From positions 1 to 64,000 of the forward strand of contig NW_026781940.1 of assembly GCF_031769215.1 (NCBI RefSeq): a DNA stretch of 64,000 bases, read 5' to 3'. Made by a program: the position numbers. Source of the DNA: Ylistrum balloti (lineage: Eukaryota). Shown piece after piece: positions 24,001 through 27,000 of the stretch (positions are counted from its first letter, which is position 1; the number at the start of each line of letters is the position of its first letter).

Positions 24001-27000
24001 CCTACCCTACATACGGAGCAACATACAAAACTCTTAATGATTTCTACCTTTCGCAGGTAATTCGGAAGGCCGTTCCATTTGCGGGATGCCTCTTACCTGA
24101 TAGAACTTTTTCTCTACCTGGATGTTCATTTTTTAAAAAAATTAGACTTTATATAAATCCATGATTAATATTATAAAAAGAACAAAAACTTCATGTAGAT
24201 TTTTGAAGATCAGCATTGCAATCATTAAAAACAATTTGAAAATCTCTTTTTTGCACTTTCTCAATTTTCTTGATGACCAAAATATCGCAAATACCGTGGT
24301 AATTAAAATTTAAAAGTCTACTGTCAGACTCTTCCATGTCCACTTATACACAACTTCTAATATTTGCAGAGATATTGATCTACCATGCAGGAAGCTGATA
24401 TTGTATTAAAACAATATTTGACGATAAAAATTACATTGACATGTGACATAGACCCTCCAGCCGATTATTTCTCTTAAGACCCGGAAGATCTATTTTTCCG
24501 TGTCCAAATTTAGAAAATAGCCATGTGACATTCAAGTAAAGATGGCAGCCTCCATGTGCAACGTGAGTGTTCTTCGTCGACAGTTGTTTTCATCGGTACA
24601 AAAGAAATCATGTTGTCATTATCATCTTGTAGGAAGACTTTGTTCAAGTATAGCAGAAAGAGACGACATTGATCATAAAGACAAAGAAGCAACATTCCAG
24701 TCCCGTGTGGCAGACGAAGACGACTATTTTGGTGTGTCGATTCCAGAAGACAGGTGGTCTGTACCTCGATCATCATCTCTCTCTGAAAAGGAATTATTCG
24801 AAAAATATCAGGCAGGTAGATTAAGCGAAAATGAAACATACAACATGCAATTTGTAAACTTGCGGTTTGGAAGGATGCGTTTCGATAACGTGACAGATTT
24901 AAAACATCAAAAAGATGCGAGGATGAAATTTCATGACTTAAATCAAGTTGGTGTGAAAAAAGATATTTTGAATACTATGGCACGTATTAACGACGGAAGA
25001 GAAACATCGTATTCGGAAGAAAGTTATTATGCTTCTCTTTTAGATCAGTTCAAAAGTGATTCGAAATATCGTGAGCCTTCTGTGGCGCAAGATTTAGTTT
25101 CAAAGAGATCTAGATCAAGGACACGTAAAGCAGGGAATGGAAAAGTTGATTCCCTTCAGGTGAGTAAATCAGGAGCGATGGACAATGTTGAAACTGATCA
25201 GGATGTGGAAGGAAAGACATCACCATATCATACTGCTACACCTACTACGGTTGAATATGGTGATGAAAAATTGACAGTTTCAAATGAAGCTAACGATGAA
25301 AGTTCTGATAGAAATAATGGTGATTTGAACTTTATAGATCAACAGTATTTTCAAGGAGATCTTGTTTCAAATGAGGAAATTAGCACCAAAGTTAAAGATA
25401 GTGATAGCTGTGATTTGAACTTCATAGATCAACAGTATTTTCAACAAGATACAGTATTAACAAAAGCTGAAAAATCAGCCGGGTTATTAAACTTTGAATC
25501 GTCACAAGGAAATCATCCTAATGAAGTTATACCAGAACTAGAACCAGATTTCTTGTTTTCTCATGCAAAGAAAGAAATATCTTCGGAAAAGAACAGAACA
25601 TTTTCCGATCAAGAAATTATATCTTCTAGTGTAGAAACAGTTTCTCATACTTATCCGAAAGATCATACAGAAAAGCTGCATCCAACTTCAAAGTCAAAAA
25701 CGATGAAAACCAAAGAAAACCCCAGAGCAAAGCCTGAGAAGATAAAAACTGAAAATTTTGACAGTGAAGTATTATCTTCCTACCAAGAGACTGCAATTTC
25801 AAACCCCGATCAGGTATCTGAGAGTGCAACTCCAAAGATTCAAAACTTGGAAACTGAAGGAGGCAGTACAAAAACAAGATCTAGCGATATTAATTTTATT
25901 GATCAACAGTTCTTTGGCGAGCACTTATCTGATGATGATTTGAAAACATCCATAAATAGCGAATTTTGGAATGATCAAGAATCAGATTTGAACTTTATAG
26001 ATGAAAAATATTTCAAGGAAGCTGAATCTACTCCTGAAAGGAAACCAATTGATTTGCTGACTCCAGACCATGAAGGGCCTGAAAATAAAGCGTCTGTAAG
26101 AGATGTAAAACATTCTGGTAAAGGAAAAAAATCTAAAAAAAGGGAAAAAGAACTTAATAGAACTGACATGGATAAGCGCAGTGATCGTCTTTTTCAATTT
26201 CAAGTTATGGATGACCTTGAAAGAGATAGCTTAATAAAAAGAAAACGTGCACTGTCCACAGGGAAGGAGAATGAGACTGAAAATTTGTCGAGCTCAGCTT
26301 ATGGCACAGTGCAGAAGCTACGAGGCAGTCAAGGAATTAATCTAGAAGGTAAACTTTTTTTATCATCTGTTCAATCTTTCAGTGGTAATTGGTTTTCAAG
26401 TATATTTTGAAATGATTAAAAGTAATTACATTTTTTGAAAAAAAAAAAGAAAAAAAAAAGCATGCAAATAAAATTGTATAAAAGTCTGGGGAAAAATACA
26501 TTTATCATAGAATCTTACCAGACTTTATTGATAAACTTTTTATTTGTTGTCTTTTCTGATGTATAGAGTTAATGTTTAATTAATAGATATTAATTAATGT
26601 CTTAATAAGTAACTAAGATGATGAAGTCTTCACAAAATTAAGACACTGTAAGATCATTATAGCAAGGTCAAAATGTATATTAAGTGCATGTGTAGTAATA
26701 TATGCATGACAGGCACATCTAGACCTGCACAAACCCTCAAGGCTAATGATGTTCCCTTATCTTCATTTCTTTGAAAAATGTGTCATTCAAGTTAAAAATT
26801 TATAGCATTTTCATCAAGTTTTTTTGAATTTCTTATCAATTAAAAAATCTCGAAAGTTAATCTGATGTGAAAAAAGAAATCATCTTTTTAGCACAATGTT
26901 ATTAGATTTTAGGCTATTCAGATCACCTTTCGTCCATGGCCCATGGTCTGTCATCTGTCGGTAAACAATTCTTGTTATCGCTTCTCAAGAATCGTCGAAC

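What the first reader, a model, noticed from the sequence alone, without database searches (positions are those of the whole stretch)
24542..26348. RPUSD4 with a ~600-aa single-exon N-terminal extension containing four D(L/I)NFID(Q/E)(Q/K)(Y/F)F motifs
Human RPUSD4 is about 377 aa (recalled). Here exon 1 alone encodes 602 codons: an Arg/Ser-rich targeting-like start, then an acidic, probably disordered region. A 10-aa motif recurs at residues 261, 291, 449 and 482 (nt 25322, 25412, 25886, 25985), arranged as two pairs 30 and 33 aa apart; the first pair is a visible DNA duplication. Conserved hydrophobic islands in disordered sequence suggest short linear interaction motifs, perhaps for partners in the mitochondrial RNA granule or mitoribosome assembly (inference).
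Basis: partly seen in the sequence, partly recalled or inferred. Interest (0 to 1): 0.65.

Follow-up and report, generated by a model that had tools for sequence, protein, structure and literature searches.

The report
Scallop RPUSD4 with conserved repeated docking motif
The scallop gene for the mitochondrial RNA-modifying enzyme RPUSD4 has a long, floppy front end carrying several copies of a short motif that also occurs in the same enzyme of snails, octopuses, worms, spiders and crustaceans, so the motif is probably an old, undescribed docking site.

Summary
Window 24542-26348 (+) is one open exon of 602 codons plus 1 nt. It matches residues 1-602 of a public 896-aa scallop protein (Ylistrum balloti LOC132565379) at 100%, and that protein continues into eight catalytic exons. 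The catalytic part is an RPUSD4 orthologue: the Pecten orthologue hits human RPUSD4 (5uba) at E 2e-68, and the next hit, RluA, is 2.6e-16.

AlphaFold gives pLDDT below 50 for 507 of the 602 exon-1 residues, so the exon is predicted to be mostly disordered. Three are near-invariant islands in four scallop species. The first is a Ylistrum-only duplication of 29-30 codons.

The main new result is that the motif is not confined to scallops. Among 52 named long RPUSD4 orthologues, the N-terminal regions hold 102 matches to the motif core against 2.9 expected from shuffles. The consensus is D-L-(N/S)-(F/Y)-(I/F/V)-D-E-Q-Y-F-G, with usually 2-4 copies per protein. It occurs in molluscs, a nemertean, a leech, chelicerates, a millipede and crustaceans. 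It is absent from amphioxus, echinoderms, a hemichordate and Ciona.

The best reading is a multivalent short linear docking motif on a disordered tether. The partner is unknown. I found no description in print.

The parts
24542..26348 (+). Coding exon 1 of the RPUSD4 orthologue: 602 codons plus 1 nt of a split Gly codon. It encodes the N-terminal extension.
   Evidence: It is 100% identical to residues 1-603 of P0002. It has no Pfam, NCBIfam or PDB match.
24542..24655 (+). Residues 1-38: basic start with no acidic residues, resembling a mitochondrial presequence.
   Evidence: 5 K+R and 0 D/E in the first 35 residues; first acidic residue at 39. Predicted helix 8-22. No targeting predictor was available.
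24716..24739 (+). Island EDDYFGVS (residues 59-66), invariant in the 4 scallops. It corresponds to the D(F/Y)FG island of other protostomes.
   Evidence: invariant run 59-66. D[YF]FG found in 22 of 49 named orthologues.
24851..24892 (+). Residues 104-117, FVNLRFGRMRFDNV: predicted beta hairpin. It corresponds to the FGx(V/I)RxD island.
   Evidence: AF2 strands 104-107 and 110-113, and 101-105 and 108-112 in Pecten. The island matched in 25 of 49 named orthologues and in none of the 8 deuterostomes or the tardigrade. The regex misses Ylistrum's own FGRMRFD.
25322..25351 (+). Motif 1, DLNFIDQQYF (residue 261). This is a Ylistrum-specific extra copy.
25412..25441 (+). Motif 2, DLNFIDQQYF (residue 291). 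NFIDQQY is invariant in the 4 scallops.
   Evidence: Predicted helix 297-299 and 268-273 in Pecten.
25886..25915 (+). Motif 3, DINFIDQQFF (residue 449). NFIDQQFFG is invariant in the 4 scallops.
   Evidence: Predicted helix 452-458 and 420-426 in Pecten.
25985..26014 (+). Motif 4, DLNFIDEKYF (residue 482). SD.N.IDE.YFKE is invariant in the 4 scallops.
   Evidence: Predicted helix 488-491 and 458-462 in Pecten.
25277..25450 (+). Tandem duplication of 29-30 codons that created motif 1. The two units each begin with VSNE and each contain one motif.
   Evidence: D1, 85% over 54 nt at a 90-nt offset. (ungapped comparison). (insertion relative to the other scallops).
26153..26272 (+). Residues 538-577: basic predicted long helix (..VMDDLERD..RKRA..) that links the extension to the catalytic domain.
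   Evidence: AF2 helix 538-577, pLDDT 61-74, and 517-547 plus 557-571 in Pecten. Invariant RKRA and VMD.LER.
27133..27255 (+). Coding exon 2 (..GAPLRDSKGMKVMK..): the start of the conserved RPUSD4 body.
   Evidence: Splice sites read. 100% to P0002 603-643. The DSKG(F/M)(R/K)(I/V)(L/M)K island is present in 17 of 49 orthologues.
27967..28014 (+). Coding exon 3 (DDIVAIYKPYGLPSHG). Boundaries are approximate, within about 3 nt.
   Evidence: tblastn 100%.
28201..28335 (+). Coding exon 4, holding the catalytic-Asp motif HRLDKDTTG. Boundaries are approximate.
   Evidence: PF00849 at E 1.8e-06, 28.7 bits, above the cut-off. 5uba_A is the only PDB hit. Translation.
29042..29144 (+). Coding exon 5 (..KKYWAITKGIPNPTEG). 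The donor GAGG|GTGAGT was read directly.
   Evidence: PF00849 at E 2e-05.
30059..30114 (+). Coding exon 6 (GIIDIPMMEGTVDGK..). The acceptor cttcag|GT was read directly; the 3' end is approximate.
32319..32495 (+). Coding exon 7 (..LNFLPDGRIATKSSVKTFKAETYYKV..ECLPLTG). Boundaries are approximate.
33474..33575 (+). Coding exon 8 (VRHQLRAHLSFGLNTPILGDHKYS..). Boundaries are approximate.
35350..35583 (+). Last coding exon (..QSKVRYIPLHLHAMSILIPEF..LKLSMRGK, then stop). The 5' boundary is approximate.
   Evidence: 5uba_A is the only PDB hit, E 6.4e-11.

Best explanation
The locus is the scallop orthologue of the mitochondrial pseudouridine synthase RPUSD4. Exon 1 encodes four things in order: a presequence-like start, a small conserved N-terminal module (a D(F/Y)FG island and an FGxVRxD hairpin), about 400 residues of acidic, Ser-rich disordered chain, and a basic helical linker into the catalytic domain. 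The disordered chain carries several copies of a short linear motif with consensus D-L-(N/S)-(F/Y)-(I/F/V)-D-(E/Q)-Q-Y-F-(G). Each copy is predicted to form a one- to two-turn helix. The motif is old: it is shared by Lophotrochozoa and Arthropoda and has been kept while the surrounding sequence diverged beyond detection. Its copy number changes by local duplication, as in Ylistrum. Shown here: the gene structure, the orthology, the predicted disorder, the conservation and the enrichment. Inferred: each copy docks into a groove of one conserved globular partner in the mitochondrial matrix. Several copies on a flexible tether would give avidity, or would bridge several partner molecules. That would concentrate RPUSD4 at nascent 16S rRNA, mt-tRNAs, pre-large-subunit particles or the RNA granule. 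The identity of the partner is a guess.
For: Gene and orthology. Exon 1 equals residues 1-602 of public P0002, which carries PF00849. P0002 maps to 9 exons of the window at 100% in the exon cores. Pecten P0003 residues 606-865 match human RPUSD4 5uba_A at E 2e-68, against 2.6e-16 for RluA. Window exons searched singly hit only 5uba_A. The fold match has TM 0.90 normalised to 5uba.

Disorder with local helices. 507 of 602 residues have pLDDT below 50, with helices at motifs 2, 3 and 4. Pecten gives the same picture.

Conservation in scallops. 22 of 30 motif columns are invariant against 107 of 572 others, p = 5e-10.

Conservation across phyla. 102 core matches against 2.9 expected in the N-terminal regions of 52 named orthologues. 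39 of the 52 have at least one. Only 1 match lies in any catalytic part.

Positions the regex did not force are also fixed. N/S at -1 in 73 of 81 instances (13.8 expected) and Q at +4 in 57 of 81 (4.1 expected).

Outside the motifs the extension is unrecognisable. A profile of the scallop extension found only the scallop cluster among 1.84 billion representatives.

After the Ylistrum duplication the motif stayed at 29 of 30 nt while the flanks fell to 17 of 24.

The motif-bearing 50-residue blocks are the most acidic of the exon, with net charge -9 and -10.

Precedent. In the passages read of PMC7957421, the N-terminal domain of Trypanosoma brucei RPUSD4 binds the assembly factors mt-LAF7 and mt-LAF8 in the pre-large subunit, and the protein acts as a scaffold. 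In the abstract and passages of PMC5377769, human RPUSD4 is an RNA-granule component needed for 16S rRNA stability and large-subunit biogenesis.
Against: No partner was identified, and none could be searched for with these tools. Mitochondrial import is inferred from composition alone. The motif is absent from the 8 named deuterostome long forms, a tardigrade, a springtail and one oyster, Saccostrea, so RPUSD4 can work without it. Only orthologues of 477 aa or longer were examined. Insects, nematodes, cnidarians and sponges are therefore not covered, and the age and extent of the motif are uncertain. Sequence conservation alone cannot separate binding in trans from a role in cis or from homotypic association. 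The orthologues are related by descent, so the 102 matches are not 102 independent events. The shuffles control for composition, not for relatedness.
Confidence: 0.6

Rival explanations
1. The motifs are homotypic or low-specificity 'stickers': aromatic residues in an acidic, polar spacer. They would drive RPUSD4 into a condensate such as the mitochondrial RNA granule by multivalent weak contacts, not by docking to one defined partner.
For: There are several copies on a disordered acidic chain. Copy number varies from 1 to 5 between lineages. Human RPUSD4 is a granule component (abstract of PMC5377769).
Against: Eight consecutive positions are constrained, including the non-aromatic N/S, D and Q. 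That precision is typical of a groove-binding peptide and not of generic stickers. The flanks are free to vary.
Confidence: 0.15
2. The motifs act in cis. They would fold back onto the catalytic domain or the basic linker, for example as acidic-aromatic RNA mimics, and gate RNA binding by autoinhibition or hand-over.
For: The motifs are acidic and aromatic and sit in the same chain as an RNA-binding enzyme with a basic linker.
Against: In the full-length AlphaFold model of the Pecten orthologue the motif helices stay at low confidence. The block mean pLDDT is 59 at best and 41-49 around it, while the catalytic domain is 88-98, so no confident docked state was produced. Several copies are not needed for a one-to-one cis switch. 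The catalytic domain is equally conserved in deuterostomes that lack the motif.
Confidence: 0.12
3. The motif serves a non-matrix role: a cytosolic or nuclear isoform, or an import or turnover signal such as a degron or a contact-site motif.
For: The acidic-aromatic pattern loosely recalls FFAT-like and activation-domain peptides (recalled, not from a call). Isoform X2 models exist for Argopecten and Octopus.
Against: The presequence-like start is kept in the four scallops and in most other orthologues looked at. The recalled FFAT, PAM2 and PIP-box consensus positions are not met (see the membership test). Nothing here points to another compartment.
Confidence: 0.06
4. It is an artefact or neutral sequence. 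Either exon 1 is a separate upstream gene wrongly fused by gene prediction, or the motifs are recent repeats with no function.
For: No RNA evidence for the junction was available to me. Motif 1 really is a recent duplication.
Against: The splice phases fit. Exon 1 has no stop before the donor. Four scallop models share the junction. The same extension-plus-catalytic architecture is found in 94 proteins of 477 aa or more. Thirteen of these come from unnamed contigs of 1.9-2.7 kb whose ORF fills 83% or more of the contig, so those ORFs are uninterrupted; I derived this from the lengths listed. The motif is conserved across phyla.
Confidence: 0.03

Closest known systems
Human RPUSD4 (mitochondrial pseudouridine synthase, RluA family; PDB 5uba)
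   Same: The catalytic body is the same. The Pecten orthologue aligns over 5uba residues 23-289 at E 2e-68, with 42% identity and TM 0.90 normalised to 5uba. Window exons match 5uba singly. The shared features are HRLD(K)(D/E)TTG, KKYWAIT, GDHKYS..APQKL and IPLHLHA.
   Different: The scallop protein has about 560 extra residues between the presequence and the catalytic body, carrying 3-4 copies of the motif. The human length of about 377 aa is recalled, not from a call. Human RPUSD4 itself fell below the length floor and was not examined. None of the 8 named deuterostome long forms examined has the motif.
Trypanosoma brucei RPUSD4 / mt-LAF3 in pre-mtLSU assembly intermediates (PDB 6yxx, 7aoi)
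   Same: It is an RPUSD4-family protein with an added N-terminal part that contacts other assembly factors and scaffolds the particle (passages of PMC7957421). It is also a sequence and fold hit.
   Different: There the N-terminal part is described as a domain resolved in the particle. Here it is a long chain predicted to be disordered, with repeated short motifs. No sequence similarity between the two N-termini was found.
Bacterial RluD and RluC (with an N-terminal S4 RNA-binding domain)
   Same: They share the RluA-family catalytic fold and also have an N-terminal accessory region.
   Different: The bacterial accessory region is a folded S4 domain (established knowledge, not tested here). 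Exon 1 has no Pfam domain at all and is predicted disordered.
Multivalent short linear motifs on disordered tethers (a general class; for example FFAT, PAM2 and PIP-box peptides, recalled)
   Same: A short island of 8-10 residues that is conserved inside fast-evolving disordered sequence. It has local helix propensity, acidic flanks and a variable copy number.
   Different: The consensus matches none of these recalled motifs, and the compartment is presumably the mitochondrial matrix. No binding domain is known for it.

Membership tests
RluA-family pseudouridine synthase (Pfam PF00849) | PseudoU_synth_2 domain | tested here: met
   Window exon 28171-28335 scores 28.7 bits against a cut-off of 26.8. 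Exon 29027-29179 scores 25.3 bits, just under the cut-off. PF00849 is precomputed on P0002-P0005.
RluA-family pseudouridine synthase (Pfam PF00849) | Catalytic Asp in the HRLD motif | tested here: met
   The translation of window 28171-28335 contains ..YMVHRLDKDTTGVMLLAR. H689, R690, L691 and D692 are invariant in the scallops.
RPUSD4 orthologue group | Closer to RPUSD4 than to any other pseudouridine synthase of known structure | tested here: met
   5uba_A scores E 2e-68, RluA 2.6e-16 and RPUSD1 (5vbb) 1e-3. Foldseek rank 1 is 5uba at E 1e-30. Many of the hits are named RPUSD4 by their sources. This is a one-directional comparison. No RPUSD3 structure was among the hits, and no tree was built.
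RPUSD4 orthologue group | RPUSD4-type C-terminal region (GDHKYS..APQKL..QSK.R.IPLHLHA) | tested here: met
   Alignment to 5uba residues 228-289. The last window exon alone hits 5uba 228-291 at E 6.4e-11.
RPUSD4 orthologue group | Mitochondrial matrix localisation | tested here: inconclusive
   The start is basic with no acidic residues, and a helix is predicted at 8-22. No targeting predictor or experiment was available.
RPUSD4 orthologue group | Pseudouridylation of mt 16S rRNA and mt-tRNA | not testable with these tools
   This needs an enzymatic or knock-down assay.
Short linear motif (SLiM) in a disordered region | Short conserved island inside sequence predicted to be disordered | tested here: met
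   pLDDT is below 50 around the motifs, with short helices at them. The invariant runs are NFIDQQY, NFIDQQFFG and YFKE.
Short linear motif (SLiM) in a disordered region | Conserved in orthologues while the flanks diverge | tested here: met
   102 matches against 2.9 expected. Information content peaks at positions -1 to +6 and is below 1 bit in most flanking positions. The extension profile finds nothing outside scallops.
Short linear motif (SLiM) in a disordered region | A defined binding partner or domain | not testable with these tools
   No eukaryotic partner sequences could be brought in.
FFAT motif (VAP-binding; consensus EFFDAxE recalled from memory) | Small residue (Ala-like) at core position 5 and an acidic or Ser/Thr residue at position 7 | tested here: not met
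   In 96 instances the corresponding positions are E or Q (58 of 96) and Y (87 of 96). The consensus itself is recalled and comes from no call.
PAM2 and PIP-box peptides (consensus recalled from memory) | PAM2: Ala at position 7 and Pro at position 12. PIP box: Q at position 1 and an aliphatic residue at position 4 before the aromatic pair. | tested here: not met
   By position in the table, D (82 of 96) sits where PAM2 has Ala and where the PIP box has its aliphatic residue. Both consensus patterns are recalled and come from no call.

The most novel reading that the evidence does not exclude
The (N/S)-(F/Y)-I-D-x-Q-Y-F repeat is a previously unrecognised, ancient class of docking motif. Through it protostome RPUSD4 would be tethered multivalently to one conserved mitochondrial matrix protein of the large-subunit assembly or RNA-granule machinery. 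Deuterostomes would have lost or replaced this recruitment mechanism. If so, the motif gives a handle for finding that partner and possibly other clients that carry the same motif.
Probability: 0.4. Interest if true: 0.65.

Novelty: new variant of a known kind. Interest (0 to 1): 0.5.

Why it matters
RPUSD4 is essential for mitochondrial large-subunit biogenesis in human cells (abstract of PMC5377769). How it is brought to its RNAs and to assembly intermediates is known structurally only from trypanosomes. A repeated motif that is conserved across phyla and sits in otherwise unalignable sequence is strong evidence of a specific interaction that nobody has described. It defines a peptide that can be synthesised and used as bait. 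It shows that 'uncharacterized protein' models in dozens of invertebrate genomes are RPUSD4 orthologues with a shared architecture. It also shows how a functional motif survives in a disordered region where whole-extension profile searches find nothing.

Tried and rejected
1. A profile of the whole scallop extension (A2) against 1.84 billion representatives found only the scallop cluster. Homology of the extension cannot be traced by HMMER.

2. A profile of the four window motif segments (A4, 40 aa each) against 5.8 billion proteins, longer lengths, E up to 10: only 3 scallop proteins among 173 candidates. A single motif copy cannot reach significance in a database of that size, so this says little about other motif-bearing proteins.

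3. Exon 1 against Pfam, NCBIfam and PDB sequences: nothing. The only line was Crystallin at E 0.11, below the cut-off, which I treat as chance.

4. ESM Atlas with residues 440-500: no usable hit.

5. Complex prediction with Pecten catalytic residues 575-869 against motif segment 405-475: 'no answer', score 0.00, controls not run.

6. Literature. 'DEQYF' gave 38 papers; the 20 listed are T-cell-receptor repertoire papers by title. Six longer motif strings gave 0 papers. 'RPUSD4' with 'N-terminal extension', 'intrinsically disordered' or 'Drosophila' gave listings with no title or abstract about an invertebrate extension or motif.

7. Resemblances to the EF-hand loop, clathrin box, LIR, FFAT, PAM2 and PIP box were considered by eye and rejected because key positions do not fit. 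All these consensus patterns are recalled.

8. Genome contigs was not scanned, because it holds only bacteria and archaea.

9. I did not fold-search the exon-1 model, because its mean pLDDT of 40 would give meaningless matches.
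Full report
**What is in the sequence**

Window 24521-26410 (+) is the longest open frame near the finding, at 629 codons stop to stop. From the ATG at 24542 it reads 602 residues to a G|GTAAAC donor, so the exon ends at 26348. The acceptor ttttcag|GA at 27133 completes a Gly codon and continues ..GAPLRDSKGMKVMK... The four motifs are at nt 25322, 25412, 25886 and 25985, which are residues 261, 291, 449 and 482. They are the only matches to NF[ILVM][DE]..[YF]F in all six frames of the 64 kb. 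The window has no N. The first pair lies in a tandem duplication, 25307-25360 against 25397-25450, 85% identical.

**Which gene and organism**

Exon 1, searched alone, is 100% identical over its whole length to a public 896-aa protein, 'uncharacterized protein LOC132565379 [Ylistrum balloti]'. That protein carries PF00849. Exon 1 is 37-44% identical to 767-881-aa proteins of Pecten maximus, Argopecten irradians and Mizuhopecten yessoensis. These were 4 hits at E up to 0.01 among 7999 scored candidates. The contig is therefore scallop, not human.

I never joined the exons myself. The public record, used by id as a tblastn query, maps to nine exons between 24542 and 35580, with 100% identity in the exon cores.

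- Single window exons match Pfam PF00849.
- In the PDB sequence set, single window exons match only human RPUSD4 5uba_A, at E 5e-06 and 6e-11.
- The Pecten orthologue matches 5uba_A at E 2e-68 over residues 606-865. The next hit is RluA at 2.6e-16.
- Its AlphaFold model matches 5uba with TM 0.90 normalised to the target.
- The catalytic HRLD motif is in the exon at 28201-28335.

**The extension in scallops**

In the four-scallop alignment 129 of 602 exon-1 positions are invariant. The invariant runs of four or more residues are EDDYFGVS, VEYGD, NFIDQQY, NFIDQQFFG, YFKE and RKRA. Of the 30 columns of motifs 2-4, 22 are invariant, against 107 of the remaining 572 (p = 5e-10). A run of 9 invariant columns was reached in 0.0002 of permutations.

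Motif 1 is missing in the other three species and lies in a Ylistrum-only insertion. After that duplication the motif kept 29 of 30 nt, while the adjoining repeat flanks kept 17 of 24 (p = 0.016).

AlphaFold on exon 1 with the four-sequence alignment gives a mean pLDDT of 40, with 507 of 602 residues below 50. It predicts:

- short helices at 297-299, 452-458 and 488-491, which are motifs 2-4;
- a helix at 8-22;
- a partly ordered stretch at 82-173 that includes a hairpin;
- a long helix at 538-577.

The full-length Pecten model, built with 49 sequences, shows the same picture, and its catalytic domain has pLDDT 88-98. The first 35 residues have 5 K+R and no D/E. The motif-bearing blocks are the most acidic of the exon.

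**Beyond scallops**

A profile of the whole extension found nothing outside the scallop cluster among 1.84 billion representatives. A profile of the four motif segments found only scallop proteins at E up to 10.

Searching with the catalytic region of the Pecten protein, while restricting candidates to 477-1521 aa, returned 94 long RPUSD4-like proteins at E up to 1e-20 among 1053 candidates. Fifty-two of them carry a source's name. They cover:

- bivalves, gastropods, cephalopods and a chiton;
- a nemertean and a leech;
- spiders, mites and Limulus;
- a millipede, crustaceans, a springtail and a tardigrade;
- three amphioxus, three echinoderms, a hemichordate and Ciona;
- two bird fusion models.

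In the N-terminal regions of these 52, the core pattern [FYILVM][IVLF][DE]..[YF][FYIL] occurs 102 times, against 2.9 expected from 1000 composition-preserving shuffles each. It occurs once in all the catalytic parts together. Thirty-nine of the 52 proteins have at least one copy. With the stricter core ending in F, 38 of the 52 named and 31 of the 42 unnamed proteins have at least one copy.

Positions that the pattern did not constrain are also fixed:

| Position | Residue | Observed (of 81) | Expected |
|---|---|---|---|
| -1 | N or S | 73 | 13.8 |
| +4 | Q | 57 | 4.1 |
| +3 | E | 39 | 6.8 |
| +7 | G | 20 | 3.1 |

These figures are, and the logo is. The spacing between neighbouring copies ranges from 25 to 213 residues.

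A position matrix finds no copy better than shuffles in the three amphioxus, three echinoderms, Ptychodera, Ciona, the two bird fusions, the tardigrade, the springtail and the oyster Saccostrea. It does recover a variant, N(F/L)NE(I/V)D(E/N)QYFG, twice each in Bulinus and Biomphalaria.

Other shared islands mark a common architecture of the extension in protostomes: D(F/Y)FG in 22 of 49 named orthologues, FGx(V/I)RxD in 25 of 49 and DSKGFRILK in 17 of 49. The MAFFT consensus of the 49 named orthologues shows three alignable motif positions.

**How it probably works**

The anatomy is that of a multivalent short linear motif on a disordered tether. An island of 8-10 residues with helix propensity and acidic flanks has been kept across phyla while everything around it drifts, and its copy number changes by local duplication.

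My best-supported explanation is that each copy docks into a groove of a conserved partner and that multivalency provides avidity or bridging. The compartment is probably the mitochondrial matrix, given the presequence-like start.

A partner in large-subunit assembly or the RNA granule is inference. It rests on the known roles of RPUSD4 (abstract and passages of PMC5377769) and on the trypanosome precedent, where the N-terminal domain binds mt-LAF7 and mt-LAF8 (passages of PMC7957421).

The rivals are generic condensate stickers, a cis-regulatory fold-back, a non-matrix role, and an annotation artefact. They are weighed in their own sections.

**Limits**

- There was no RNA evidence for the junction.
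- No eukaryotic proteome or genome could be scanned for other motif-bearing proteins.
- Orthologues shorter than 477 aa were not examined.
- The orthologues are related by descent, so the counts are not independent events.
- The collections metagenome contigs and viral contigs and the papers' supplements were closed and stayed unchecked.
The 5uba construct has 295 residues.

**Novelty**

The gene model is public but unnamed. I found no paper describing the invertebrate extension or the motif (searches; listings only, apart from the two papers cited). I rate it a new variant of a known kind: an RPUSD4 with a lineage-wide disordered extension that carries an undescribed conserved motif.

Noticed in passing
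window 29109-29866: A 58-bp tandem repeat of 13 copies starts inside RPUSD4 coding exon 5. It copies the last ~36 nt of that exon plus its GTGAGT donor into intron 5. There are 13 donor-like sites, CAG(A/G)NGGTGAGTCC, at 29139-29839. Use of a downstream copy would add 58 nt per unit and shift the frame.
   Followed up: partly
window 19139-23874: A 35-bp A-rich satellite with 139 copies and 89% matches. GC is about 26% and AT skew about 0.6. It ends about 670 bp upstream of the RPUSD4 start codon.
   Followed up: partly
window 60970-61338 (-) and 61594-62592 (+): An exon matches Pfam PIG-L (GlcNAc-PI de-N-acetylase, E 3.9e-09) on the minus strand. It lies head-to-head with a 332-codon acidic, Pro/Thr/Glu-rich open frame that contains MADEEGQ.. 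and has no Pfam match.
   Followed up: partly
window 42336-43206: A 48-bp minisatellite of 13 copies (42491-43106) is open in two frames on the + strand. The 285-codon frame has a weak fn3 match (24.9 bits, cut-off 25) upstream of the repeat. Whether it is coding is unclear.
   Followed up: no
window 57677-58608; 63262-63689; 38972-39147; 56511-56709: Further minisatellites: 56 bp x 16.6 (95% matches), 27 bp x 15.9, 26 bp x 6.9 and 17 bp x 11.6. The 27-bp array could be a 9-residue coding repeat.
   Followed up: no
P0005 (Mizuhopecten), alignment A1 columns ~540-590; P0006 (Solemya) residues 477 and 493: There are other lineage-specific tandem duplications inside the extension. Mizuhopecten repeats a ..SDHRKLEEEKV.. 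unit about four times. Solemya has the DSKGFRILK island twice, 16 residues apart.
   Followed up: no
P0072, P0084 (bird models) and P0066 (Dinothrombium): Two bird models fuse an RPUSD4-like part with PF01416 (a tRNA pseudouridine synthase domain). One mite model carries an extra PF14813. These are probably gene-prediction fusions.
   Followed up: no
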